DNA of 64,000 nt from an uncultured Bacteroidota bacterium (lineage in GTDB: Bacteria; Bacteroidota; Rhodothermia; Rhodothermales; Salinibacteraceae), in the NCBI GenBank assembly GCA_937127285.1, contig CAKZLV010000055.1, positions 159 to 64,158 of the forward strand, in the 5' to 3' direction. Below are positions 51,254 to 61,229 of the stretch, one piece after another. The notes under the pieces are model-generated. The model was not told where the DNA came from. It saw only the letters and a program-made list of their open reading frames with translations, and ran no database searches. The first letter of the stretch is position 1, and the number at the start of each line of letters is the position of its first letter. A program made the translations under genes and the position numbers.

Positions 51254-54200
51254 TCAGAGCGGCAGGGTCACCTCGAAGGTCGTCCCGTCCCCGTCACGGC
51301 TGTCGACATCGATGGATCCGTCGTAGACCTCCACGGCTCGCTTCACGATTGTCATGCCGAGGCCGGAGCCGTCGGCCCCGCCGACGTTGCCGGCGCGGAA
51401 GAAGGCACGGAAGAGATGCTCCTGGTCGCTCTCCGGAATGCCGATCCCCTCGTCGGCCACGCGAAGCTTCAGGGTGTGGTTTTCCATCTTCCACCGGACG
51501 CGGACGGGGGTGTCGTCGGGAGAGTACTTCAGGGCATTGGACAGCAGGTTGGACAGGATGTGGTGGAGGAGATCGGGGTCGACAGCGATCTCGTCCGGCA
51601 GCCCGATCGTGTCGACCTCGACGGTTCGGTCTACCCCCAGGTGGGCGCAGACCTCGTCGGTAACCTCTCGCTGAAAGCGGTGAGGGTCGACGGGGGCGGG
51701 GGTCGGGGTGTCGTGCTCGGCGTCGAGCTTGCTCGTGGTGATCACGTCGCCGAGCAGGCGCGACATGCGATCGATCTGGCGGTGGATGCGGTCGACGTAC
51801 TTCTTTCGTTTCTCGGGCGACCACTGCTCGAAAAACTCTCCCATCATTTCGGCCGAGGACCGGATCGTGGAGAGCGGCGTCCGGAACTCGTGCGACACCA
51901 TGCTGACGACGCTCGACTTCAGCCGGTTCAGTTCGCGCTCGCGCCGCAGCGCTTCCCGCGTCTGCTGCTCCATGCGCTTGCGCTCGGTGATGTCGTGAAG
52001 CGTCCCCACGATTCCGGACGTGTGCCCGTCGGCCGGTCCGTCCTCCTCGTGCCCCTCCTGGAGCGTCTGGGCAAAGAGCGCCATCCACCGCACCGACCCA
52101 TCTCGCGTTCGCAGCTTCACCTCGCTCCGGCACGAGGACTGCTCTCCACGAAAGACGCCGCACATCTCTTCCAGCTCCGGCCCTTCAAAGTACGCCAGGC
52201 TCGGGTTGCCCGTCGTCTCTTCCACCGGATATCCCGTGAGCGCTTCCCATGCCGGGTTGAGAAAGCTCCAGTGGCCGTCCGCATCGATCTGAAAGACCAC
52301 GTCGCGTACGTTCTCGACGACGGACCGGTACTGCGCCTCGCGCTCGCGAAGGGTTTGCTCGGCCTCCTTGCGGATTAGGGCGTTGGCAAACGTGTCGCCC
52401 AGGACGCGGAGCAGCATGATCGTTTCCGACTCCCAGGTGCGGGGCGTCTCGACGGCGTCGAACCCGGCGAAGCCGATCAGCCGGCGCCCGTTCGACATCG
52501 GGACGAGCACGAGCGACTGGACGCTCTGCGCGTGCAGGACGGCCCGAAGCGCCTCCGCCTCCGGCGGAAGGTCGTCCACGTCGGGCACGTGCACGGCGCT
52601 CTCGGTCCGGAGCCGGTCCATCAACCAGGCGAATCGCTCCTGCGGGACGTTTTGGATCTGGTCGCGGTGCGACGTGATGCCGGGGCCGCACCACTCATGC
52701 GTGTTGCTGAGCGTCTCGGCGTCGTTGTCGAACAGGAACACGTAGCTGCGGTCTGCACCGACGAACGGGCCGATCCGGCCGAGGGCTTCTTCGATGCGCC
52801 GATCGGTAATCCCGGCGTCCATGTCGATGAAGCGCGTCGACAGGTCGACGATCAGGTTCTCGAGCAGGACGCGGTACTCGAGTTTGTCCTGCGCCGCCCG
52901 CCAGTCGGTAATGTTGCGCAAGACCGTCTGCGCGGCGCGTTCGCCGTCGTACCGAATGGGAACGGACTGCGACTCGACGATGCGGGTCTCTCCATCCAGG
53001 CGTCGGACCCGGTACTCGAACGGCTCGGTGGCCCGCCCCGCCTCCAGGTCGGCGAGCCGTTCGTCGACCCGGTCTTCGTATCCGTCGGCCACGAAGTCTC
53101 GCACGGATCGGCCGACCAGGTCGCCCGGCGAGTCGGCCCCCAGCAGGTCGGCCCCACTCGGGTTGATGTAGCGAATCCGTCCGCCGACCGAAATCAAGAT
53201 CGGTTCCATGTGCGTTTCCACGAGCCGGCGCCAGCGCTCCTCGCTCTGCCGCAGCGCCTCCTCCTGCGCCTTCTGGGCGGTCACGTCCACGGCGTACCCG
53301 GCATACCGGTCCGGGCCGGTACCCGTCTCCACATGCCCCGCCACCGAGTGCACCCAGCGGATGGATCCGTCCGGCTGCACGACGCGGTACTCCAGCGTGA
53401 GTTCTCCGTCGCTCCACCCGTTGCGCATGGCCTGCACCACGCGGGGGCGGTCTTCGGGATGGATGGAGGACAAGTAGGCCTCCGGATGCTCGTAGAGCTC
53501 TTCGACGGGCCGCCCCCAGATGCGCTCATAGGCCGGGCTGATGTACAGGTACTGTTCTTTCGTGCGCAGCCAGAAGACGCCCTGCACGTTCTCTGTGACT
53601 TGCCGAAGACGCTTCTCGCTTTCTTGAAGGGCCTTTTCCGCCAGCACGCGATCGGTCACATTGCGGGTCGACACAACCAGCGCGCCTCCGTTGCCTGCAG
53701 CTCCCGCCCCTTCGACCGGCGCCGGCAGGTCGGGCCGATCCGCCCCCGCCCACTTCCGGGAGGTCATTTCGACCCAGACGTAGTGCCCGTTCTTGTGCTG
53801 CAGCCGTGCCCGGCGCTTGACGATTTCTCCGTCGAGCGCCCGGTCGATGTTCGTCCAGGTAGGCGGCCGGTCATCCGGGTGCATCAGTTCGATGCAGGGC
53901 CGGCCGACGATCTCCTCCGGCGGGTAGCCGAGCAGCGCCTGAACGGACGGGGTGGCAAACGTGCAGGTTGTGTCGGCCGTGTGGCGGGTGATGACGTCCG
54001 CTACGTTGTTGACGACGTAGCGGCATTCGTTCTCGTTCACGTCTCGCCCGGAGCGATTGGACGCCGGGTCGGCAGCCGCGGCCTCGGCTCCATCTCCTCG
54101 CGAGGGAGCCGGCACGCCGGTGAGCATCAGCAGCCCGTCCGTTCCCTCGATGCGCTCCGCCCGCCAGTATGAGGGAGCGTCGGGGCGGTCTCCCTCGACG

Positions 54201-54547
54201 GGAGGCAGGTGAGCCTCCGCCGCCCCTTTTCTGCAAACCGTTTGCAGAAGATCGTGTACGCGCCCCCGGCGCACCGGGCCGTACACGTCGGTCAGCGTTC
54301 TCGGCTGCGGTTCGTTGCCGGAGGAGCAGTTGTCCCGGTCGTCTGCCTCCCGAGACGGGGTGTGCGGGACCGGGGACGGGGCAGGAGGCGCGGTACGAGA
54401 CGTCGTTCCGATCACCTGCTCCGCAAAGGCGTCGTTCCACCGGTGCAGCGTTCCGTCCAGGTCTGCGATCGCCGCCGGTTTGGCTACCGCGTCGAGGAGC
54501 GCGGTGCTCACTTTTTGCTCCTGGTCGAGGCGTTCGTGAAGGGACAT
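51254..54547 (-). CDS. Multi-PAS/GAF sensor histidine kinase (no receiver domain)
   Basis: The ORF was trimmed to MSLHERLD. It has at least four PAS/PAC modules, one GAF-like module (GADRSYVFLFD), an H-box (SHEFRTPLSTI) and an HATPase_c domain (LSNALKYSP, DEGIGIP, GSGLGM). Confidence 0.9.
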   Translation of the reverse strand: MSLHERLDQEQKVSTALLDAVAKPAAIADLDGTLHRWNDAFAEQVIGTTSRTAPPAPSPVPHTPSREADDRDNCSSGNEPQPRTLTDVYGPVRRGRVHDLLQTVCRKGAAEAHLPPVEGDRPDAPSYWRAERIEGTDGLLMLTGVPAPSRGDGAEAAAADPASNRSGRDVNENECRYVVNNVADVITRHTADTTCTFATPSVQALLGYPPEEIVGRPCIELMHPDDRPPTWTNIDRALDGEIVKRRARLQHKNGHYVWVEMTSRKWAGADRPDLPAPVEGAGAAGNGGALVVSTRNVTDRVLAEKALQESEKRLRQVTENVQGVFWLRTKEQYLYISPAYERIWGRPVEELYEHPEAYLSSIHPEDRPRVVQAMRNGWSDGELTLEYRVVQPDGSIRWVHSVAGHVETGTGPDRYAGYAVDVTAQKAQEEALRQSEERWRRLVETHMEPILISVGGRIRYINPSGADLLGADSPGDLVGRSVRDFVADGYEDRVDERLADLEAGRATEPFEYRVRRLDGETRIVESQSVPIRYDGERAAQTVLRNITDWRAAQDKLEYRVLLENLIVDLSTRFIDMDAGITDRRIEEALGRIGPFVGADRSYVFLFDNDAETLSNTHEWCGPGITSHRDQIQNVPQERFAWLMDRLRTESAVHVPDVDDLPPEAEALRAVLHAQSVQSLVLVPMSNGRRLIGFAGFDAVETPRTWESETIMLLRVLGDTFANALIRKEAEQTLREREAQYRSVVENVRDVVFQIDADGHWSFLNPAWEALTGYPVEETTGNPSLAYFEGPELEEMCGVFRGEQSSCRSEVKLRTRDGSVRWMALFAQTLQEGHEEDGPADGHTSGIVGTLHDITERKRMEQQTREALRRERELNRLKSSVVSMVSHEFRTPLSTIRSSAEMMGEFFEQWSPEKRKKYVDRIHRQIDRMSRLLGDVITTSKLDAEHDTPTPAPVDPHRFQREVTDEVCAHLGVDRTVEVDTIGLPDEIAVDPDLLHHILSNLLSNALKYSPDDTPVRVRWKMENHTLKLRVADEGIGIPESDQEHLFRAFFRAGNVGGADGSGLGMTIVKRAVEVYDGSIDVDSRDGDGTTFEVTLPL

Positions 54548-55098
54548 GGCCGCCGATCGACTGTTCGGGCAGAATCGGGTTCGAGCAGCACCGGGCCTGC
54601 GAGTGGCTGCGGCAGGGATGCCTTTCATCGGGGTGTGCGGTTAGGAAGTCAAAACTCAAGGAACCGGTCGATGCCGTCAGAAGCAATCGAACCGGCCTCC
54701 TGACGCGGCGGCGCGGCGATCTTCCCACCGTTGTAACGTGTGCGGAATTCGAGGTCGCCCCGAGGAACGCGGCTTCTTCCTCGTCTTTCAGATGGATGTT
54801 CTCGAAGAGTGCCGTCGGCGGCATCGGTCTTCGTCGAACGACATCCGACCGATACCATCTCGACCGACCCTTCTCCCCTTCCGGAGGCGTTGCCGGTGTC
54901 CACCGCAGACGCGTTCCGGCAGGCACCCGCAGTTCCGGCAGGCACCCGCGATCCGGGCATGCGCCCACACTGCGTGCGCCACCGCGTGCGCACCTGATCC
55001 GGGTATCCGCTTGATCCGGGTGTCCGCTCGGGCGCAGGCACTCGCGCGCACCGATCCCTCGAAGCCAGCGTTCTGCAGGAACTTCCCGGCCTGTCCCC

Positions 55099-56778
55099 AT
55101 GCCCGACCCTGATTCTTCGTCTGGCCGCCGCGATGCCGACCTGGACTGGTACCGGCGGCAGTGGGAGGAGCTTCAAGACATTTTGTCCGTCGACCGGGCC
55201 GAGGCCGTCACCGGCCGGGTGCGAGAGCTTCGGCTGGACGCGCTGCAGGACCGAGCCGAGGTATGGGCGGAACAGGCCGAGGGCGGCGACGAGGCGGCGC
55301 GCCGCGTGCTCTCCGAGATCCGCGACCACCTGCGCGCGCTCCGCGACCGGTCCGACGCGCTCGATGCCCTCTGCGATGCCCTCGACGCGCCGGATGCCCG
55401 GACGGCGGCACAACGGGTGCAGGCGCTGAAAGAGGAGCGCGACGACCTGCGCGCTGCCCAGCAGTCGTTTCGGCAGGCCGGCTTCGACGACCCCGAGGAT
55501 GCCCTCGAGATGATCCGCACCATGGAGGCGCAGCTCGACCAGCTCTACGGGGAGAAGGAATCGACCCTGAAGTCGGAACGGCGCGCCGAGGAGATCGCCG
55601 AAAAAGGCGGAACGTTTGAACAGCTGGAGGCGCTGCTCGCCCGCGAGGAGAAGCTCCAGCGCGAACTGGGCATCTCGTCTTCCGACGAGATCATTGCCAT
55701 GGTGAACGGCCTCGTCGACCAACTCGAGGACCTGTACGACCGGCAGGGAGCCGCTCGGCCGGAGTCGGTAAACGGAACGAGCGTGGACGCGCCGTTCGAC
55801 CGGCTGGAGGAACTGCTGGACCGGGAGCAGACGCTCCAGGACGAACTCGGTGTGTCGAGCCCGGACGAGGTCGTTGCGATGGTCCGCGGCCTCACCCGGC
55901 AGCTGGAGGATCTGTACACGGCCCGCGAGCGCCTCGCCCGCGTCAACCTCGACGACGCAGATAGCGTCATCGAGATGGTAAACAGCATGAAAGCGCAGCT
56001 GGAGGTGCTGTACGAGGACCAGGAGCGGCTGTCGAACCAGGGAATCGACGGCGTCGACCACGCCCTGTCGATGATCGAAAGCATGGAGGCGCAGCTGACC
56101 GACCTCTACGAGAAACAGCAAACCCACGGGGCGTCCGACGAGAAGCTTCAGCGCCTGCACGAGCAGTTGGAGTCGCTGCGACGGGAAAAAGAAGACCTGC
56201 TCGAGCGGCGCGAAGCGCTCGAGGCGGAAAATGCGTCGTACGCCCAGACGGTCTCCGCCCTGGAAGACACCCTGGGAACCTCCGACCCGGAAACCATCTC
56301 CAGTCTGGTGGACAGCATGGAGAAGCAGCTCGCCGACGTCTACCAGTCGCAGGAGTCGCCGGCCGACCCGGACGCGACGCCGCCTCCGCCGCTCATCGAC
56401 CGGTCGGACCTGGAGGAGATCGATTCTCGCTCGGCCGAAGAGCTGCACGCCCTGCCGGTCGGCGCCTTCTGCCTGGCGGACGACGGAACGGTGCGCCGGG
56501 CGAACCGTGCCGCCCTACAATGGCCGAGTGCAGAGGCCGCCTCCCCCGACGCGCTGACCGGCCGCGACTTTTTCTTCGATCTGGCGCCGGCAACCAACAA
56601 CCCGCCGTTCCGCGGCCGGTTCTCACGGGGGGTGCGCGAGGAAAATCTGGATACTCGCTTCTCGTACACCTACGTTGCACGAGACGTCCCCCTCACCGGC
56701 TTCGTGGTTCAGATGTATCGCACCGGCGACGACGCCAACTGGATTCTGTTCCAGCCGGTGACGGACCGCTCGCCCTGA
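55099..56778 (+). CDS. Repeat-rich coiled-coil protein with a C-terminal PYP-like PAS domain lacking the chromophore cysteine
   Basis: This 559-aa acidic ORF has six copies of a ~24-aa motif ending Q-L-[ED]-x-L-Y. Its C-terminal ~120 aa are clearly paralogous to the adjacent PYP (FRGRF, FSYTY, NWI), but it reads LAPATNN where PYP reads VAPCTNN. Confidence 0.75.
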   Translation: MPDPDSSSGRRDADLDWYRRQWEELQDILSVDRAEAVTGRVRELRLDALQDRAEVWAEQAEGGDEAARRVLSEIRDHLRALRDRSDALDALCDALDAPDARTAAQRVQALKEERDDLRAAQQSFRQAGFDDPEDALEMIRTMEAQLDQLYGEKESTLKSERRAEEIAEKGGTFEQLEALLAREEKLQRELGISSSDEIIAMVNGLVDQLEDLYDRQGAARPESVNGTSVDAPFDRLEELLDREQTLQDELGVSSPDEVVAMVRGLTRQLEDLYTARERLARVNLDDADSVIEMVNSMKAQLEVLYEDQERLSNQGIDGVDHALSMIESMEAQLTDLYEKQQTHGASDEKLQRLHEQLESLRREKEDLLERREALEAENASYAQTVSALEDTLGTSDPETISSLVDSMEKQLADVYQSQESPADPDATPPPPLIDRSDLEEIDSRSAEELHALPVGAFCLADDGTVRRANRAALQWPSAEAASPDALTGRDFFFDLAPATNNPPFRGRFSRGVREENLDTRFSYTYVARDVPLTGFVVQMYRTGDDANWILFQPVTDRSP

Positions 56779-56891: not shown

Positions 56892-57377
56892 ATGCCTGAA
56901 TCGGAAGAAAAGTACCCGTTTCTCGACAACCCATCGGACGAAGGAACAACGTCCGCCAACGGCCACCGCTCGTCCGGCGAACCGGCAGACCCCGCGCCGT
57001 CTGTCGACGAACTGCACTACGACGACGAGAGCGTCGGCGAAAAGCTTCGGCACGCGACGGACGAGCAGCTCAACGGCGCCAACTTCGGGATTATCCAGAT
57101 TGACGACGACGGCGTCGTTCAGTTCTTCAACGCCTACGAGTCGGAGCTCAGCGGTGTCGACCCGGACGATGCAGAGGGGAACAACTTCTTCACCCAGGTG
57201 GCTCCGTGCACCAACAACCGCCTCTTTCGGGGGCGCTTCAAGAAGGGGGTGCGCCGCGGCGAGCTGGACGAGACGTTTTCCTACACCTACACGTACAAAA
57301 TGCGCCCGACGCTGGTCGACGTCCGGCTCTACCGAGACGAGGCCGGCCACAACTGGATCATGGTCCAAAAGTACTGA
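56892..57377 (+). CDS. pyp: Photoactive yellow protein (with a ~37-aa N-terminal extension)
   Basis: It aligns by eye to Halorhodospira halophila PYP. VAPCTNN contains the chromophore Cys (TGC 57207-57209), the Glu46 equivalent is present (AYESEL), and the C-terminus is NWIMVQKY. Confidence 0.9.
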   Translation: MPESEEKYPFLDNPSDEGTTSANGHRSSGEPADPAPSVDELHYDDESVGEKLRHATDEQLNGANFGIIQIDDDGVVQFFNAYESELSGVDPDDAEGNNFFTQVAPCTNNRLFRGRFKKGVRRGELDETFSYTYTYKMRPTLVDVRLYRDEAGHNWIMVQKY

Positions 57378-58027
57378 CCCCGGCACCGCCGGCTCCCGAA
57401 GGGCCGAATTCGGACGCCGAGTGGGGAGGACCGAGTTCGGGGGCTCATCCGTCCGGCAATTTCGGGACGCACCGCCGGGCGACATCGCTTCGTCCGGACC
57501 GTTGTCCCGCAGCGGGGGTCCCCTCTCCCCCTTCGGATTGCCCCGGCGCGCTGAACCGGCGCGTTAAAGCCGGCGCGCTGACACCGACGAATGGGGGCGA
57601 ATGGGGACGAGTTGATCCGACGCGTCTCCCCGCGGGTCGTGCGTCCCGAGCGAGGCCCGGGAGCTCCTCGTGGGCGGTCGCCTTGCTGTCCGCCGCGCAA
57701 CCGGGGCCCCGGCAGGTGACACGTTGCTGTAACGGATGGATGTCTCCTCCGGTACGCCCGGTACTTGCGAGGCAGTCAACCGTTGTGGGTATCACGAGGG
57801 GGAGAAACGCGCCCGCCTCGGCACCAGCCTGTGCAGACTCGACAGCGGCACGGATCGTCGAGAAACCACCGTAGAGAAACCCACGAGAAACCCACGGGTC
57901 GGGTGCGGGCGAAGCCGCCCACGGGACGGCGCTCGGCACGACGCACGGCGGCGCTCTGGCTGCCGCCGTCCACGTCCTGCTGCTCCTTTTCGTACGCATC
58001 CCTGATGATTTCCTCCGGAGTTCGAGT

Positions 58028-59587
58028 ATGATGAGAAGGAACGGGACGACAGGAGCTCCGGACCCTTCCGGGTCTCCGCGCACCACCGCAAGCCCCGAGG
58101 CCGTGGAGGCCCTGGAGGAGGCGCTGGACCGGTGCGGTTCTCCCGGGGAGCCGCCCTCCGAGAATCCATGGAAATCACTTCTCTTCGACCGGCTGTGCGA
58201 CCGCGCCCTTCCCGCTACGATCTGGAAGGGAAACATCACGCCGGCTGCCTCGCTCTGGACGGGGTCGCGGCTCTGGACGCAGGCCTTCCGCAGCGGGGGC
58301 TTGGAGGCAGGGGACCGGCTCGTCATCGCCCTGCCGTCCAACACGACGTTCGTCCAGGTGCTCCTCGCCGCCATCTGGCAGGGCTGCACCGTGTGCCTCG
58401 TGCCGCCCTCCGAGGACGTAGACGCCGCCTGCGAGGAATTGGACGCCCGCGCCGCCGTGGCTGAGGAGCCGGGCCCTCACGTCTGGACGCCTGAAGGCTA
58501 CGCCGGCCCGCGCACCACGCCGGACGCGCTTCGCTCCGTCTCGGCCGGCCGCACCCCGTCCGTGCGCTTTCTGATGCGCACCTCGGGCACCACCGGCCTG
58601 GCGCGGTGGGTCGCCCTCTCCGACCGGAACGTCCTCTCCGTCCTGCGGAGCCACCTCCCCCACTTCCGCCTGAACGACGGCCGGGTGCTGTCGGTGCTGC
58701 CCTGGACGCACGCGTTCGGGCTCATCCTCGACTTCTTTCCCGCCCTGCTCGCCGGCGCCGAAATCATCCGTGCCCCCGAAGGCGGTCGCTCGCCCCGCAA
58801 GCTGCTGAAGCTGAGCGAGGCCTGGGGGTCGACGCACCTCTCCACCGTCCCCCTCGTCATCGAACGGCTGCTCGCCTGTGACGGCGGCGAAGCCCTTCTG
58901 AGGAACCTGCAGGGCGGCATCGTCGGGGGAGCCCCCGTCTCGGGGCCGATGGCCGAGAAGCTCAGCGAGACGCGCCTGCGGGCCGGATACGGCCAGACCG
59001 AAGCGTCTCCCGGCATCGCTCTCGGAGAACCGGGGCACTGGGAGGCCAACTACCTCGGCCGTCCCGTCGGCTGCAGCGTGGACGTCGCCCCCGACGGCGA
59101 ACTGCTCTTCAGCGGAGACAACGCCTGCGTCGGCTTCTGGGAAGACAGGGGCCTGCACCGGGCCGACCCCCAGCGAACGGTGCGCACCGGCGACCTCGTC
59201 CGGCGCGACGGCGACCATCTCTTTTTTCGCGGGCGCAAGGACGACGCCTTCAAGCTGTCCAACGGCCGCCTCGTTCAGGCCAGCGCCTGCGAGGCCGAGA
59301 TCAAGAACAGCTTTCCGACGCTCCACGACGCCCTGCTCTTTACCCACAACGGCCGCGACCTGACGCTGGCCGTGTGCCCGTCGCAGGACGCGCCGGACGC
59401 GGACCGCCCCTCCGACGAGGCGCTTCTTTCTGCCCTCGGGTCGCTGGCGGCGCGCACCGACCGGGTGGTTTCGGTCTCCCCGGACGAGTGGGTCTCCACT
59501 CCGAAGGGGGCCGTCGACCGGTCGGCCATGATCGAAACCCTCACCGCCGACCTGCCGGCCGCCTCCCGAGCAGCCCGCTGGTCGTGA
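58028..59587 (+). CDS. pcl: AMP-dependent synthetase/ligase, probable p-coumarate-CoA ligase
   Basis: It has the adenylation motifs MRTSGTTGLAR, GYGQTE, and TGDLVRRDGDHLFFRGRKDD. Its position between pyp and the ammonia-lyase matches known PYP chromophore clusters. The start is uncertain. Confidence 0.8.
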   Translation: MMRRNGTTGAPDPSGSPRTTASPEAVEALEEALDRCGSPGEPPSENPWKSLLFDRLCDRALPATIWKGNITPAASLWTGSRLWTQAFRSGGLEAGDRLVIALPSNTTFVQVLLAAIWQGCTVCLVPPSEDVDAACEELDARAAVAEEPGPHVWTPEGYAGPRTTPDALRSVSAGRTPSVRFLMRTSGTTGLARWVALSDRNVLSVLRSHLPHFRLNDGRVLSVLPWTHAFGLILDFFPALLAGAEIIRAPEGGRSPRKLLKLSEAWGSTHLSTVPLVIERLLACDGGEALLRNLQGGIVGGAPVSGPMAEKLSETRLRAGYGQTEASPGIALGEPGHWEANYLGRPVGCSVDVAPDGELLFSGDNACVGFWEDRGLHRADPQRTVRTGDLVRRDGDHLFFRGRKDDAFKLSNGRLVQASACEAEIKNSFPTLHDALLFTHNGRDLTLAVCPSQDAPDADRPSDEALLSALGSLAARTDRVVSVSPDEWVSTPKGAVDRSAMIETLTADLPAASRAARWS

Positions 59588-59735
59588 TCGCACCGCCGCG
59601 CGACGGGTCGGGCGGCCGCAGGATTCGTCCACCGGCCCGCGCTCCGTGCCGTCGCTGCCCCCCGGCCGCCGATGCCGGATTCCTCCTTGGTCCCGGTCCC
59701 CCCTTTGGTTTCCCCTCACCGCCCCCTCTGCCCTC

Positions 59736-61229
59736 ATGTCGACGCCCGTGTTCCTCGGTCCCGACGTCTGCTTGACTGCAGAGGACGTGGAGACGGTGGC
59801 CCGCAGCGCGTCGTGCTGCGTGGAGCGAACGGAGGCTGCCGCCGCCGGCATGCAGCGGGCCCGGGAGGCCCTGGGCGAGGTGGAGCGGAGCGGGGCGCCC
59901 ATCTACGGCGTCACCACCGGGTTCGGAGCGCTCGTCGATCATGCCTCGGAGGGCTCGTCAGCCGACCACGCAACCGGCCTTCTGCATCACCTCACGACCG
60001 GCTCCGGCCCCCCGGCCGATCGATCCGTCGTGCGAGCGATGATGCTGGCCCGGCTTCAGGCCCTCGCCCAGGGACGATCCGGCGTCCGCCTCTCCGTCTT
60101 CGACGCCCTGGCATCGCTGATCAACGCATCGATCACGCCGGACGTCCCGGAGATCGGCTCCCTCGGGGCGAGCGGAGACCTCACCCCCCTCGCGCACGTC
60201 GCGCAAGTGGTTGCCGGTGACGGATCGGTGCGCGCGCCGGACGGCAGCCCTGCCCCCGCCAGCGACGCACTTGCCGAAGCCGGCCTGGAGCCGGTGTCGC
60301 TGGACGGACGCGACGCCCTCGCCCTGGTAAACGGAACCGCGTTCATGACGGGGCTGGCCAGCCTGGCCCTCGTGCGGGCCGAGCGCTTGATGCGGCGGGC
60401 CGAAGCGCTCACCGGCTGGGCCTACCGTCTGCTCGGCTGCTCGCTGGAGCCGCTCGATGCCGTCCTGCACGACGCTCGCGGGCATGCCGGGCAGGCCGCC
60501 AGCGCCGCAGCCATCCGCGACGAGGCGCTCCGCGACGGATCCATCCCCGAGGCCGACCGGCCGCTGCAGGAAGCATACTCGCTGCGGTGCGCCCCGCAGA
60601 TCCTCGGCGCGGTGCGCGAGCAGCTGCAGTACGTGCGGTCCCTCACCGAAACCGAACTGAACGGCACGAACGACAACCCCGTCATCGATCCCGACGGCCC
60701 CCGCGTCATCCACGGCGGCAACTTTCAAGGCCAGCAGGTGGCCTTCGCCGCCGACGCACTCAACGCCGCCATCACGCAGGTCGGCGTCCTGGCAGAGCGG
60801 CAACTGGACCTCTTGCTCACGCCGCAGCGCAACGGCGGCGCACCGCCCCTGCTCGCCTGGCGTCCGGGGCCGACGAGCGGCCTGGCCGGCGCGCAATTGA
60901 CAGCCACCTCCCTCGTCGCCGAACTGCGGCACGACGCCCAGATGAGCGCCACCTTCTCCATTCCCACCAACGGCGACAACCAGGACGTCGTGTCGATGGG
61001 AGCGATGGCGGCCCGCCGCGCCTACGAGCAGACCGACCACCTCGCCCCCATCCTGGCCATTCTGAGTCTGGCCCTGACCCAACTGACCCACCTGCGCCGG
61101 GCAGGACGCGCCGACGGGCCCGCTCCCGCCCCTCCCCCCTGGATGCCGGACGTCGAGCCCGTCGTAGACGACCGGCCGCTCCGCTCCGACATTGCCGACC
61201 TCGCCGAGCGGTGGCTCCACCCCGACTAA
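59736..61229 (+). CDS. tal: Aromatic amino acid ammonia-lyase, probable tyrosine ammonia-lyase
   Basis: The ORF was trimmed to MSTPVFLG. It has the MIO-forming GASGDLTPLAH (Ala-Ser-Gly) and NGTNDNPV. LLHHLTTGSG puts His-Leu at the substrate-selectivity position. Confidence 0.85.
   Translation: MSTPVFLGPDVCLTAEDVETVARSASCCVERTEAAAAGMQRAREALGEVERSGAPIYGVTTGFGALVDHASEGSSADHATGLLHHLTTGSGPPADRSVVRAMMLARLQALAQGRSGVRLSVFDALASLINASITPDVPEIGSLGASGDLTPLAHVAQVVAGDGSVRAPDGSPAPASDALAEAGLEPVSLDGRDALALVNGTAFMTGLASLALVRAERLMRRAEALTGWAYRLLGCSLEPLDAVLHDARGHAGQAASAAAIRDEALRDGSIPEADRPLQEAYSLRCAPQILGAVREQLQYVRSLTETELNGTNDNPVIDPDGPRVIHGGNFQGQQVAFAADALNAAITQVGVLAERQLDLLLTPQRNGGAPPLLAWRPGPTSGLAGAQLTATSLVAELRHDAQMSATFSIPTNGDNQDVVSMGAMAARRAYEQTDHLAPILAILSLALTQLTHLRRAGRADGPAPAPPPWMPDVEPVVDDRPLRSDIADLAERWLHPD

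What the first reader, a model, noticed from the sequence alone, without database searches (positions are those of the whole stretch)
55099..56778. Chromophore-less PYP paralogue fused to a long repeat domain, immediately upstream of the real pyp
The last ~120 aa (nt ~56404-56763) are unmistakably PYP-like when laid against the neighbouring PYP:
- FFFDLAPATNNPPFRGRFSRGV against FFTQVAPCTNNRLFRGRFKKGV
- FSYTYV against FSYTYT
- NWILFQP against NWIMVQK

The Cys that thioester-links p-coumarate is an Ala codon (GCA, 56590-56592). The positions I align to Tyr42 and Glu46 of H. halophila PYP also read Ala/Ala. So this domain cannot bind the chromophore in the canonical way, yet it is kept next to pyp, pcl and tal.

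I do not recognise this architecture (about 430 aa of acidic helical repeats plus a dead PYP domain). Known PYP fusions such as Ppr and Ppd have an N-terminal, Cys-containing PYP. It could be a dark partner, scaffold or heterodimerisation decoy for PYP, that is, a candidate missing downstream component of PYP signalling.
Basis: partly seen in the sequence, partly recalled or inferred. Interest (0 to 1): 0.85.

Follow-up and report, generated by a model that had tools for sequence, protein, structure and literature searches.

The report
PYP-partner repeat protein with dead PYP domain
This gene encodes six copies of a previously undescribed helical repeat, which sits next to photoactive-yellow-protein (PYP) genes in several bacterial phyla, fused to a PYP-like domain that has lost its chromophore-binding residues, making it a concrete candidate for the unidentified signalling partner of this blue-light receptor.

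Summary
ORF 55099-56778 (+, 559 aa) ends in a domain that is PYP by sequence and predicted fold: TIGR02373 E 1e-14; every significant PDB sequence hit is PYP, Ppr or FAST; Foldseek TM 0.82-0.88. Ala replaces Cys69 (GCA, 56590-56592), Tyr42 and Glu46.

It is not a decayed copy. About 170 relatives all carry this C-terminal domain, with A/G/S at the Cys position in nearly all. The Cys-less domains form one clade (bootstrap 100). dN/dS is 0.1-0.2.

In all 17 distinct relative loci examined, and in the window, the gene lies directly upstream of a Cys-containing pyp.

The main new result concerns the N-terminal part. Its ~25-aa unit ('..LGxSxxDxIIxMVxSLExQLxxLY') defines a wider, unannotated family of 55 to >600 aa without a PYP domain. 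These genes are encoded next to pyp in Leptospira, Kapabacteria, Myxococcota, Chloroflexota and many metagenomes. In at least two loci a single unit precedes a real PYP domain in the same reading frame.

The most likely reading is a PYP-cognate partner or scaffold that captured a duplicated, chromophore-less PYP domain. Physical binding is inferred, not shown. The Cys-less proteins are listed in a 2022 supplementary table but not discussed. I found no description of the repeat family.

The parts
55099..56778 (+). Whole gene, 559 aa: helical repeat region plus a C-terminal chromophore-less PYP domain
   Evidence: ORF. Identical or 99% identical copies occur on many metagenome contigs. The family alignment is A1. 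dN/dS in orthologue pairs is 0.10-0.20.
55099..55473 (+). N-terminal helical segment (aa 1-125), specific to the Salinibacteraceae family; some members lack part of it
   Evidence: Alignment A1 shows conserved W22, L29, V37, V41 and L44. P0047, P0066 and P0083 lack columns here. Helices 15-29, 34-62, 64-94 and 100-126.
55474..55548 (+). Repeat unit 1 (aa 126-150, QAGFDDPEDALEMIRTMEAQLDQLY)
   Evidence: Motif scan. M142, Q145, L146 and Y150 are invariant in A1.
55663..55737 (+). Repeat unit 2 (aa 189-213, ELGISSSDEIIAMVNGLVDQLEDLY)
   Evidence: L190, G191, V202 and Q208 invariant; Y213 nearly invariant.
55843..55917 (+). Repeat unit 3 (aa 249-273, ELGVSSPDEVVAMVRGLTRQLEDLY)
55939..56013 (+). 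Repeat unit 4 (aa 281-305, RVNLDDADSVIEMVNSMKAQLEVLY)
56035..56109 (+). Repeat unit 5 (aa 313-337, NQGIDGVDHALSMIESMEAQLTDLY)
56269..56343 (+). Repeat unit 6 (aa 391-415, TLGTSDPETISSLVDSMEKQLADVY)
56344..56400 (+). Pro/Asp-rich linker (aa 416-434), low model confidence
   Evidence: pLDDT below 50 for residues 415-426.
56401..56763 (+). PYP-fold domain without the chromophore triad (aa 435-555)
56590..56592 (+). GCA, Ala498 in the position of Cys69 (the thioester site of PYP)
   Evidence: This column is A, G or S in nearly all of the ~170 relatives.
56892..57377 (+). Bona fide pyp (161 aa; Phe/Glu/Cys at positions 42/46/69). It has a 36-aa acidic N-terminal extension beginning with the short motif 'KYPFLD'.
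58028..59587 (+). AMP-binding ligase (p-coumarate:CoA ligase-like)
   Evidence: Pfam PF00501, E 2e-29. Syntenic in 11 related loci.
59646..61229 (+). Aromatic amino-acid ammonia-lyase (TAL-like). The start codon is uncertain.
   Evidence: Pfam PF00221, E 5e-141. The gene call in the 99%-identical locus L016 is 497 aa, and the 527-aa product is not in the collection.
51254..54628 (-). Multi-PAS/GAF histidine kinase, divergently transcribed. Its link to the pair is seen in only part of the family.
   Evidence: ORF. Orthologue next to the pair in L003, L009, L016 and L019, and not in the other loci.

Best explanation
The gene encodes a PYP-cognate partner protein.

Its N-terminal two thirds carry six units of an amphipathic helix motif, roughly '..LGxSxxDxIIxMVxSLExQLxxLY', here called the QLxxLY repeat. 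This motif defines a family of proteins encoded beside pyp genes in several phyla.

Its C-terminal domain is a copy of PYP. That copy lost the chromophore triad once, early in the Salinibacteraceae/Rhodothermales lineage, and has been kept under purifying selection since.

Proposed mechanism:
- The repeat region self-associates into an elongated helical scaffold.
- This scaffold contacts the photoactive PYP made from the next gene.
- The chromophore-less PYP domain, tethered in cis, acts as a light-blind PYP-shaped module. It either pairs with the real PYP or occupies the same site on the repeats as a fixed-state mimic.
- Photoconversion of the real PYP then changes the state of the complex and so whatever lies downstream. 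That may be a histidine kinase or OmpR-type regulator in Salinibacteraceae, or MCP/CheA-like proteins in other lineages.

Shown by computation:
- the domain identities;
- loss of the triad;
- a single origin of the dead domain;
- purifying selection;
- strict adjacency to pyp;
- the repeat family and its specificity for pyp neighbourhoods;
- fusions of the repeat to PYP domains.

Inferred only:
- physical binding;
- light dependence;
- oligomerisation;
- the downstream output.
For: 1. The domain is PYP-like and lacks the triad.

2. The loss is stable and old.
- About 170 relatives all have the domain at the extreme C-terminus.
- Position 69 is A, G or S in nearly all, apart from a few divergent or fragmentary sequences. 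Cys occurs only in P0193. Positions 42 and 46 are mostly small or aliphatic. N43, F62, A67, P68 and W119 are largely kept.
- In a neighbour-joining tree the 21 Cys-less domains form one clade with bootstrap 100/100. It is sister to the real Rhodothermales and Acidithiobacillus PYPs.
- dN/dS for two unsaturated orthologue pairs is 0.11-0.15 for the dead domain, 0.10-0.20 for the repeats and 0.06 for the real PYP.

3. Synteny is strict. All 15 genome loci, plus L016, L017/L018 and L019 and the window, have a Cys-containing pyp immediately downstream on the same strand.
- Short forms (~550 aa, A/A/[AG]) mostly pair with F/E/C-type PYPs plus pCL and TAL.
- Long forms (775-1290 aa, [LVI]/[AGV]/S) mostly pair with Y/E/C-type PYPs. 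An OmpR-type regulator lies convergent with them in L017/L018 and L019.
- Both pairs can occur in one genome (Longibacter).

4. The repeat is linked to pyp on its own.
- A profile of the repeat core hits an ORF directly upstream of a real pyp in 30 of 41 metagenome loci with at least 500 nt of upstream sequence. These ORFs have no PYP-like domain.
- Of the 11 apparent misses, at least four carry the motif on inspection.
- Among 4713 six-frame ORFs (699,012 residues), 69 of 70 profile hits lie within 400 nt of, or inside, a PYP-domain ORF. The 70th lies next to a PYP at a locus edge.

5. The reciprocal test agrees. A two-unit profile searched against 5.8 billion proteins gave 122 small 'hypothetical' proteins with no Pfam domain among the significant hits. 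All six that I looked up have a Cys-containing PYP gene adjacent:
- Leptospira terpstrae;
- Candidatus Kapabacteria;
- Myxococcales;
- Chloroflexota;
- Deltaproteobacteria;
- one unnamed 738-kb scaffold.

6. Fusions exist. The repeat is fused to the dead PYP domain here. A single unit lies in the same reading frame, N-terminal to a real PYP domain, in L056 and L066; L063 is uncertain.

7. There is a precedent. The only experimentally supported partner of a single-domain PYP is PBP of Rhodobacter capsulatus, which is encoded by the gene next to pyp (bioRxiv 10.1101/2021.06.01.446672).
Against: - No binding data exist, and no multimer prediction could be run.
- The repeat region gives no confident tertiary model: pLDDT 59 alone and pTM 0.31 in the full-length model. 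The scaffold picture is therefore unsupported structurally.
- Adjacency and fusion show functional coupling, not necessarily contact.
- The downstream output differs between lineages or is absent from the neighbourhood. Seen so far: histidine kinase, OmpR-type regulator, MCP, CheA-like, GGDEF-EAL, MerR-PYP.
- The metagenome scan was seeded with patterns from this window's PYP. It therefore samples PYPs related to this one. Nothing is known here for H. halophila-type PYPs.
- The older PYP reviews could not be read. Earlier mention of the neighbouring gene cannot be excluded.
Confidence: 0.55

Rival explanations
1. The protein helps to make or stabilise PYP rather than signal for it. In this reading it acts as a chaperone or holder for apo-PYP, as a carrier or sensor of p-coumarate or p-coumaroyl-CoA, or as a regulator of chromophore loading.
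For: - In the window and 11 related loci the gene heads a cluster with pyp, an AMP-binding ligase and an aromatic amino-acid lyase.
- Several repeat-only loci also hold the ligase and the lyase (L044, L067, L077).
- Engineered PYP variants lacking Cys69 (FAST) bind phenolic ligands non-covalently. This is my own knowledge; FAST structures are among the fold hits.
Against: - Long forms sit next to pyp without ligase or lyase nearby (L017/L018).
- Several mini-repeat genes pair with pyp where no lyase, and in some no ligase, is adjacent (L073, L075).
- Tyr42 and Glu46, which hold the phenolate, are both replaced by Ala, arguing against p-coumarate binding in the canonical pose.
- PYP is assembled heterologously with only TAL and pCL (statement in PMC12826048).
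Confidence: 0.15
2. The C-terminal domain is an independent, light-blind PAS sensor that binds some other small ligand or senses redox state. In this reading the protein signals on its own through its helical region, and the adjacency to pyp reflects only shared regulation.
For: - PAS domains commonly bind diverse ligands.
- Xing et al. proposed neofunctionalisation to redox sensing for the Cys69-substituted methylobacterial Ppr-PYP domains (PMC9664959).
- The pocket residues are replaced by small side chains (A468, A472, A498), which could leave a cavity.
Against: - No output domain is detectable in short or long forms.
- The repeat module is tied to pyp even where no dead PYP domain exists. 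The pyp link therefore does not depend on this domain.
- No conserved Cys pair or polar ligand-binding set replaces the lost triad. The columns vary: A/V/L/I/T, A/V/G/S and A/G/S.
Confidence: 0.12
3. It is a structural coiled-coil protein, for example cytoskeletal, cell-division or gas-vesicle related, whose PYP-like end only localises it. PYP signalling does not pass through it.
For: - Weak sub-threshold Pfam matches to coiled-coil families such as ZapB, EzrA and SMC-like.
- One metagenome contig encodes FtsZ fused to the repeat region (P0108).
- One repeat-pyp locus is next to GvpL/GvpF (L077).
Against: - All those Pfam matches are below their curated cut-offs and typical of helical low-complexity sequence.
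- The FtsZ fusion is a single 2.7-kb contig with the junction at a shared 'ATGFD' string, which looks like a chimeric assembly.
- The repeat profile hits nothing away from pyp in 699,012 residues of neighbouring sequence.
Confidence: 0.06
4. The PYP-like end is a decaying remnant of a tandem pyp duplicate with no function of its own.
For: All three chromophore-binding residues are gone. The dead domains evolve two to three times faster than the real PYPs.
Against: - The ORF is intact in every locus.
- The domain is present in ~170 relatives down to about 30% identity, with a conserved core: F491, F492, A496, F504, G506, R507, F521, Y523 and W548 are invariant in A1.
- dN/dS is 0.11-0.15.
- The model is confident.
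Confidence: 0.02

Closest known systems
Photoactive yellow protein (H. halophila PYP; clade-B PYPs of Salinibacter and Leptospira)
   Same: The C-terminal domain has the PYP fold, including the N-terminal cap. Its closest sequence relatives in PDB and NCBIfam are PYPs only. The core residues N43, F62, F63, A67, P68, F75, G77, F92, Y94 and W119 are kept.
   Different: There is no Cys69, Tyr42 or Glu46, so no canonical thioester-linked p-coumarate and no photocycle is expected. A 3-residue insertion with a conserved hydrophobic-Pro pair ('WP') lies in the region that carries Glu46 to Arg52 in PYP. The domain sits at the C-terminus of a 430-aa repeat region.
Cys69-substituted PYP domains of methylobacterial Ppr histidine kinases (Xing, Gumerov, Zhulin 2022, PMC9664959)
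   Same: They are natural PYP-family domains that have lost the chromophore cysteine and are kept inside larger proteins. They are interpreted as neofunctionalised.
   Different: Those domains are N-terminal and fused to a bacteriophytochrome and a kinase. They gained a Cys pair (Y42C, S50C) that suggested redox sensing. Here the domain is C-terminal, has no output domain and no new Cys pair, and always has a functional pyp next door.
Rc-PYP / PYP-binding protein (PBP, RCAP_rcc01067) of Rhodobacter capsulatus
   Same: A protein encoded by the gene adjacent to pyp that forms light-dependent complexes with PYP. This is the working model for how the present protein may act.
   Different: PBP is a 142-aa protein predicted to have N-terminal helices plus beta-sheets. 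No relationship could be tested because its sequence is held only as an image. It has no repeats and no reported PYP-like domain.
MCP-PYP fusion proteins and sensor-less MCPs next to Leptospira pyp (PMC12826048; PMC9664959)
   Same: In the MCP-PYP fusions a long helical protein carries a PYP domain at its C-terminus. In Leptospira the repeat gene lies between the sensor-less MCP gene and pyp.
   Different: No MCPsignal or HAMP domain is detectable in this protein. The PYP domain of the MCP fusions keeps Cys69.
FAST / nanoFAST (engineered Cys69-less PYP tags)
   Same: They are PYP folds without the thioester cysteine, and they appear among the fold and sequence hits. They show that such a fold is stable and can bind ligands non-covalently (the ligand point is my own knowledge).
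   Different: They are engineered and monomeric, and to my knowledge keep the phenolate-binding Tyr42 and Glu46. The natural domain here has lost both.

Membership tests
Photoactive yellow protein family (TIGR02373; PAS_PYP of Xing et al. 2022) | PAS fold with the PYP-type N-terminal cap, superposable on PYP | tested here: met
   The AF2 model has pLDDT 83-92 for residues 431-550. The top 40 Foldseek hits are all PYP, Ppr or FAST, with TM 0.74-0.88 normalised to the target.
Photoactive yellow protein family (TIGR02373; PAS_PYP of Xing et al. 2022) | Sequence closer to PYPs than to other PAS families | tested here: met
   The PDB phmmer hits with E below 1e-8 are exclusively PYP-derived. TIGR02373 gives E 1.1e-14, against Pfam PAS_4 at E 1.7e-4. 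The proteins are listed as clade B PYP homologues in the 2022 data set.
Photoactive yellow protein family (TIGR02373; PAS_PYP of Xing et al. 2022) | Score above the curated TIGR02373 cut-off (143 bits) | tested here: not met
   54.6 bits. The neighbouring genuine PYP also falls below the cut-off at 106.7 bits, so this criterion is weak for clade B.
Photoactive yellow protein family (TIGR02373; PAS_PYP of Xing et al. 2022) | Cys69 for thioester attachment of p-coumarate (used by Xing et al. to set their model cut-offs) | tested here: not met
   Ala498, GCA at 56590-56592. The column is A, G or S in nearly all of the family.
Photoactive yellow protein family (TIGR02373; PAS_PYP of Xing et al. 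2022) | At least one of Tyr42 and Glu46 to hydrogen-bond the phenolate | tested here: not met
   Ala468 and Ala472. Across the family these positions are A/V/L/I/T and A/V/G/S.
Photoactive yellow protein family (TIGR02373; PAS_PYP of Xing et al. 2022) | Yellow holoprotein with a photocycle | not testable with these tools
   This needs expression with TAL and pCL followed by spectroscopy.
Multidomain PYP sensor proteins (Ppr, Ppd, PYP-HK, PYP-GGDEF/EAL, MCP-PYP) | A recognised output or transducer domain (phytochrome, HisKA/HATPase, GGDEF/EAL, MCPsignal) in the same chain | tested here: not met
   Pfam and NCBIfam give only sub-threshold coiled-coil noise for the first 430 aa. The same holds for long forms.
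   Six units. Q and Y are invariant in 32 aligned units taken from 21 proteins.
   pyp starts 113 nt downstream on the same strand. The same arrangement holds in all related loci.
PYP-binding protein (PBP) of Rhodobacter capsulatus | Sequence relationship to RCAP_rcc01067 | not testable with these tools
   The sequence is available only as a figure image in the supplement.
PYP-binding protein (PBP) of Rhodobacter capsulatus | Light-dependent complex with the neighbouring PYP | not testable with these tools
   This needs biochemistry. No multimer prediction tool was available.

The most novel reading that the evidence does not exclude
QLxxLY repeat proteins may be the direct, long-sought downstream partners of single-domain PYPs in many bacteria, including Leptospira, Rhodothermales, Myxococcota and Chloroflexota. 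In this reading the amphipathic repeat helix docks on PYP in one photocycle state and passes the signal to sensor-less MCPs, CheA-like kinases or two-component systems. In Salinibacteraceae the partner has additionally captured a PYP copy that was stripped of its chromophore. That copy would work as a built-in, light-blind mimic competing with the real PYP for the repeats. The short N-terminal 'KYPFLD' / 'DLYSFL' motif of the real PYPs may be part of the same interface.
Probability: 0.3. Interest if true: 0.9.

Novelty: new variant of a known kind. Interest (0 to 1): 0.72.

Why it matters
PYP is a leading model for photoreceptor dynamics and the structural prototype of PAS domains. Yet both recent family surveys state that its signal-transduction chain is still a gap (PMC9664959, PMC12826048), and only one candidate partner, PBP in R. 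capsulatus, has biochemical support.

A small, unannotated helical repeat protein turns up beside pyp in unrelated phyla. It is sometimes fused to a PYP domain. In one lineage it carries a conserved chromophore-less PYP copy. This gives a specific, cheap-to-test candidate for that missing link.

The repeat gene is present in Leptospira, a genus whose PYP (L. biflexa) has been characterised. It is also present next to short PYPs suitable for in vitro work.

The dead PYP domain is also a natural example of a photoreceptor fold kept for a non-photochemical role. That is of interest for PAS-domain evolution and for design of PYP-based optogenetic pairs.

Tried and rejected
- **Known families for the N-terminal region.** Pfam and NCBIfam give only sub-threshold coiled-coil matches. 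A profile of the repeat core against all PDB sequences gives a best E of 0.063, which is not meaningful.
- **Structure of the repeat core.** The core alone gave mean pLDDT 59 and pTM 0.27, so I did not run a fold search on it.
- **FtsZ fusion (P0108).** It comes from one 2.7-kb metagenome contig with the junction at a shared 'ATGFD' string. I treated it as a probable chimera.
- **Link to the model organism S. ruber.** A search with a long form returned no protein labelled S. ruber. The 2022 table lists only one Y/E/C PYP for S. ruber, in another gene context. I do not claim the pair exists in S. ruber.
- **Organism of the window.** Exact-sequence look-ups returned no name. Rfam found only one tRNA.
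- **Remnant of the third dead-PYP gene.** This gene is seen in L007, L010 and L011. No trace of it lies in the 650-nt pyp-pCL gap of the window.
- **'Domain X'.** This is a second recurrent pyp neighbour. It is absent from the 64-kb window and from the short-form loci.
- **36-aa single-unit profile search.** I replaced it with a two-unit profile.
- **Promoter and terminator scan.** Uninformative: no sigma-70-like promoter sites, and no terminator-like site between the ORF and pyp.
- **Older literature.** Memmi 2008, Kumauchi 2008 and Meyer 2012 are not held.
Full report
**1. The observation**

The ORF at 55099-56778 (+) is real and encodes 559 aa. Its last ~120 residues are PYP-like by every test available.
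- BLASTP against the PYP encoded 113 nt downstream gives 35% identity and E 1e-19.
- The NCBIfam model for photoactive yellow protein (TIGR02373) matches residues 441-550 with E 1.1e-14.
- A sequence search of PDB returns 33 hits between E 5e-14 and 1e-8. All are PYP, the PYP domain of Ppr, or the PYP-derived FAST tags.
- An AlphaFold2 model built on 30 family members has pLDDT 83-92 across residues 431-550.
- That model superposes on PYP crystal structures with TM 0.82-0.88 and rmsd 1.7-2.2 A over about 122 columns, N-terminal cap included.

The residue-level claims are exact. Ala498 (GCA, 56590-56592) replaces Cys69. Ala468 replaces Tyr42 and Ala472 replaces Glu46, while Asn43 is kept. The single Cys of the domain (C458) aligns with the non-pocket residue Gln32 and is not conserved.

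The N-terminal 430 aa are acidic (pI 4.3, 24% Asp+Glu) and predicted all-helical. They contain six copies of a 25-residue motif.

**2. It is a stable family, not a decaying duplicate**

A search of 5.8 billion proteins found 111 relatives, mostly 450-600 aa, from hypersaline metagenomes and Salinibacteraceae genomes or MAGs (Longibacter salinarum, Salinibacter sp., 'Bacteroidetes bacterium QH/SW'). Longer relatives of 775-950 aa were also found.

An exhaustive HMMER scan of 1.84 billion cluster representatives with the N-terminal 434 aa gave only 109 hits. The family is therefore small and specific.

In about 170 members the PYP-like domain lies at the extreme C-terminus.
- The Cys69 position is Ala, Gly or Ser in nearly all. 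A few divergent or fragmentary sequences differ, and only P0193 has Cys there.
- Positions 42 and 46 are mostly small or aliphatic.
- The structural core is largely kept (N43, F62, A67, P68, W119).

In a neighbour-joining tree the 21 Cys-less domains taken from genomic loci form a single clade with 100/100 bootstrap support. That clade is sister to the real PYPs of Rhodothermales and Acidithiobacillus. Short and long forms separate within it.

Nei-Gojobori dN/dS was computed for the two orthologue pairs that are not saturated. It is 0.11-0.15 for the dead domain, 0.10-0.20 for the repeats and 0.06 for the adjacent real PYP.

The chromophore triad was therefore lost once, long ago. The domain has been maintained by selection since then.

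**3. Strict pairing with a functional pyp**

In all 15 loci recovered from species-representative genomes, the gene is followed on the same strand by a Cys-containing pyp. The same is true in the loci fetched for P0001, P0107 and P0056. Eleven of these loci continue with the pCL-like ligase and the TAL-like lyase, as in the window.

Two paralogous pairings are visible.
- Short forms (~550 aa; A/A/[A,G] at positions 42/46/69) precede mostly F/E/C-type PYPs with the ligase and lyase.
- Long forms ([L,V,I]/[A,G,V]/S) precede mostly Y/E/C-type PYPs. An OmpR-type response regulator is convergent with them in L017/L018 and L019.

Longibacter salinarum has both pairs within 12 kb, separated by a response regulator and a 1195-aa PAS histidine kinase. 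The window, L003, L009, L016 and L019 share the divergent multi-PAS histidine kinase; the other loci do not.

Three loci (L007, L010, L011) carry a third, shorter repeat-plus-dead-PYP gene between pyp and the ligase. The window has no trace of it.

**4. The repeat region is the wider story**

I scanned metagenome contigs with the window's PYP (49 loci). I then searched their six-frame ORFs with a profile of the repeat core (alignment A2).
- In 30 of 41 loci with at least 500 nt upstream of a Cys-containing PYP domain, an ORF hitting the repeat profile lies directly upstream on the same strand.
- In the more distant loci (L035 onwards) the upstream repeat ORF has no PYP-like domain. In the loci closest to the window's PYP it is usually the repeat-plus-dead-PYP protein itself.
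- These upstream proteins range widely in size. Two-unit mini-proteins are about 60 aa, for example 'MDVETATNIIASLEEQLQSLYAEKEQLDKALGISSADDIITMVRSLEEQLDSLYEERSA' in L065. Others have eight or more units and 522-609 aa (L042, L037).
- Of the 11 apparent misses, at least four carry the motif on inspection. L039 has a two-unit ORF upstream. In L056 and L066 one unit lies in the same reading frame N-terminal to the real PYP domain, with no later ATG before the domain. L063 looks similar but has later in-frame ATGs.

The profile is specific. Among 4713 ORFs (699,012 residues) from the whole window and all loci, 69 of 70 hits lie within 400 nt of, or inside, a PYP-domain ORF. The remaining hit lies next to a PYP fragment at a locus edge.

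The reciprocal experiment agrees. A two-unit profile (A4) against 5.8 billion proteins returned 122 proteins of 52-134 aa. The named ones are all 'hypothetical', and no hit below E 1e-9 has a Pfam domain. Named sources include Leptospira terpstrae and L. bandrabouensis, Leptospiraceae, Candidatus Kapabacteria, Myxococcales, Sandaracinaceae, Deltaproteobacteria and Chloroflexota.

All six that I looked up have a Cys-containing PYP gene adjacent:
- Leptospira terpstrae: MCP(-) | repeat 134 aa(+) | PYP(+) | AMP-binding(-).
- Kapabacteria: repeat 60 aa, then PYP.
- Myxococcales: repeat 87 aa, divergent from a MerR-HTH-PYP fusion.
- Chloroflexota: PAS-GGDEF-EAL(-) | repeat 74 aa | PYP.
- Deltaproteobacteria: PYP | MerR-PYP | repeat 72 aa.
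- An unnamed 738-kb scaffold: domain X | repeat 111 aa | PYP | ligase | lyase | GvpL/F.

In the published neighbourhood table of Xing et al. the Leptospira gene appears as 'None' between PYP and the chemoreceptor.

**5. What it most likely is and does**

Three lines of evidence show that the QLxxLY repeat is functionally tied to PYP:
- conserved adjacency across phyla;
- operon-like spacing (0-122 nt in the loci measured, 113 nt here);
- fusion of the repeat to PYP-fold domains, dead here and apparently live in L056 and L066.

The most economical reading is that repeat proteins are PYP-cognate partners. The Salinibacteraceae lineage fused such a partner to a duplicated PYP, which then lost its chromophore site.

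For the window protein I propose an elongated, probably oligomeric helical scaffold that engages the neighbouring holo-PYP. The tethered light-blind PYP domain would act either as a heterodimerisation surface or as a fixed-state mimic occupying the PYP-binding site.

The only experimentally supported partner of a single-domain PYP is PBP of R. capsulatus, likewise encoded by the neighbouring gene. This makes the inference reasonable.

Binding, light dependence, oligomeric state and output are all inferred. No multimer prediction was available. The repeat region gives no confident tertiary model.

I put 0.55 on the partner/scaffold explanation as a whole. Functional coupling to PYP is much more secure than the details of contact.

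**6. Rivals**

- A maturation or chaperone role (0.15) fits the ligase and lyase neighbours. It does not fit the long forms and several mini-repeat genes, which pair with pyp where the lyase, the ligase or both are absent from the neighbourhood. It also does not fit the loss of both phenolate ligands.
- An independent ligand or redox sensor (0.12) is possible for the dead domain. It leaves the phylum-wide repeat-pyp link unexplained, and no output domain exists.
- A purely structural coiled coil (0.06) rests on sub-threshold Pfam noise and one probably chimeric FtsZ fusion.
- A pseudogene remnant (0.02) is contradicted by conservation and dN/dS.

**7. Comparison with what is known, and novelty**

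The C-terminal domain belongs to the PYP family by fold and sequence. It fails the family's functional definition, which requires Cys69 plus at least one of Tyr42 and Glu46. I therefore call it a PYP-derived domain, not a PYP.

Proteins of this type are listed in Data Set S3 of Xing et al. 2022. Examples are Longibacter WP_098074757.1 (564 aa, A/A/G), Salinivenus WP_105011338.1 (558 aa, A/A/G) and Salisaeta WP_022836084.1 (569 aa, A/A/A).
- The main text discusses only the methylobacterial Ppr cases.
- The 2025 survey analysed Cys69-containing homologues only.
- Neither paper mentions the repeat protein or CheW, and CheA appears only in general discussion of chemotaxis signalling.
- A full-text search for PYP with Cys69 and coiled-coil found nothing relevant.
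- Three older papers (Memmi 2008, Kumauchi 2008, Meyer 2012) could not be read, so an earlier remark on these neighbours cannot be excluded.

I rate the finding a new variant of a known kind. It combines a PYP-family domain in a new, non-photochemical role with a repeat module that appears to be undescribed.

**8. Limits**

- The organism of the window was not identified. It is a member or close relative of Salinibacteraceae, and probably not S. ruber as represented in the 2022 table.
- The metagenome scan was seeded with peptide patterns from this PYP. It therefore samples PYPs related to this one. Whether H. halophila-type PYPs have a repeat neighbour is unknown.
- ORFs in fetched loci were called mechanically, so start codons are uncertain.

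Noticed in passing
window 56892-57000 (pyp aa 1-36); also L003, L009, L012, L017, L019 and others: The real PYPs that follow dead-PYP repeat proteins carry a 35-90 aa acidic N-terminal extension. It begins with a short conserved motif 7-15 residues from the Met: 'KYPFLD' in the window, 'DLYSFL[RKQ]' in the partners of long forms, and 'DRSILD' in others. It looks like a docking motif and shares 'DLY' with the end of the repeat unit.
   Followed up: partly
L017 7042-7500 (-); L042 1287-1688 and 6727-7188; L052 3885-6056; L067 1263-2750; L077 3493-3900; others: There is a second recurrent pyp neighbour with no Pfam match, 'domain X' (~140 aa, core motif like 'WLELKxEWxxxNxxxNY'). It occurs alone, in tandem, and as the N-terminus of ~500-aa proteins; one of these (L067) ends in a CheW-like domain. 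A classical CheA (Hpt+HATPase_c+CheW) lies in L042. This suggests a chemotaxis-like kinase pathway linked to PYP. It is absent from the window.
   Followed up: partly
L007 8350-9459; L010 7531-9129; L011 7794-9149: A third, shorter gene lies between pyp and the ligase, so pyp is flanked by two dead-PYP repeat genes. It is ~300 aa, starts 'MI[KR]S[YH]SSSLRAQTFLE', and has 3-4 repeat units plus a divergent Cys-less PYP domain. No remnant exists in the window gap 57378-58027.
   Followed up: yes
P0108 / L020 748-2454: One 2.7-kb metagenome contig encodes FtsZ (Tubulin + FtsZ_C) joined at 'ATGFD' to about 250 aa of the repeat region. This is probably an assembly chimera, but a real fusion is not excluded.
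   Followed up: partly
P0193 (557 aa); L033 1701-3959: Two exceptions were seen. P0193 is a family member with Cys at position 69 but Ala at 42 and 46. One stop-to-stop ORF in L033 contains both a Cys-less (A/I/G) and a Cys-containing (F/E/C) PYP domain, which is either a natural fusion or a sequencing frameshift.
   Followed up: no
window 54913-55046: The intergenic region between the divergent histidine kinase and the ORF holds direct repeats. There is a tandem 19-nt 'GTTCCGGCAGGCACCCGC[A/G]' x2 (54913-54950), 'GATCCGGG..' x3 (54950-55027) and 'CAC[TC]GCGTGCGC' x2 (54968-54991). These may be regulator binding sites.
   Followed up: no
window 59646-61229: The start of the TAL-like lyase is uncertain. 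The 527-aa product from the first GTG is not in the protein collection, and the 99%-identical locus L016 has a 497-aa gene call. A 650-nt non-coding gap separates pyp from the ligase.
   Followed up: no
L077 7900-8336; PMC9664959 supplement (Salisaeta longa row): Gas-vesicle genes (GvpL/GvpF, 'gas vesicle protein') lie next to some pyp clusters that include a repeat gene or a dead-PYP protein. This echoes the gas-vesicle context I recall for the R. capsulatus pyp, which was not checked here.
   Followed up: no
L016 16283-18969 (the 99%-identical copy of the window region): Downstream of the lyase lie an NTP_transf_9 (PF04248) gene and a Ser/Thr protein kinase with a PEGA domain. The NTP_transf_9 gene is also syntenic in Longibacter and in the Salinivenus rows of the 2022 table.
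   Followed up: no
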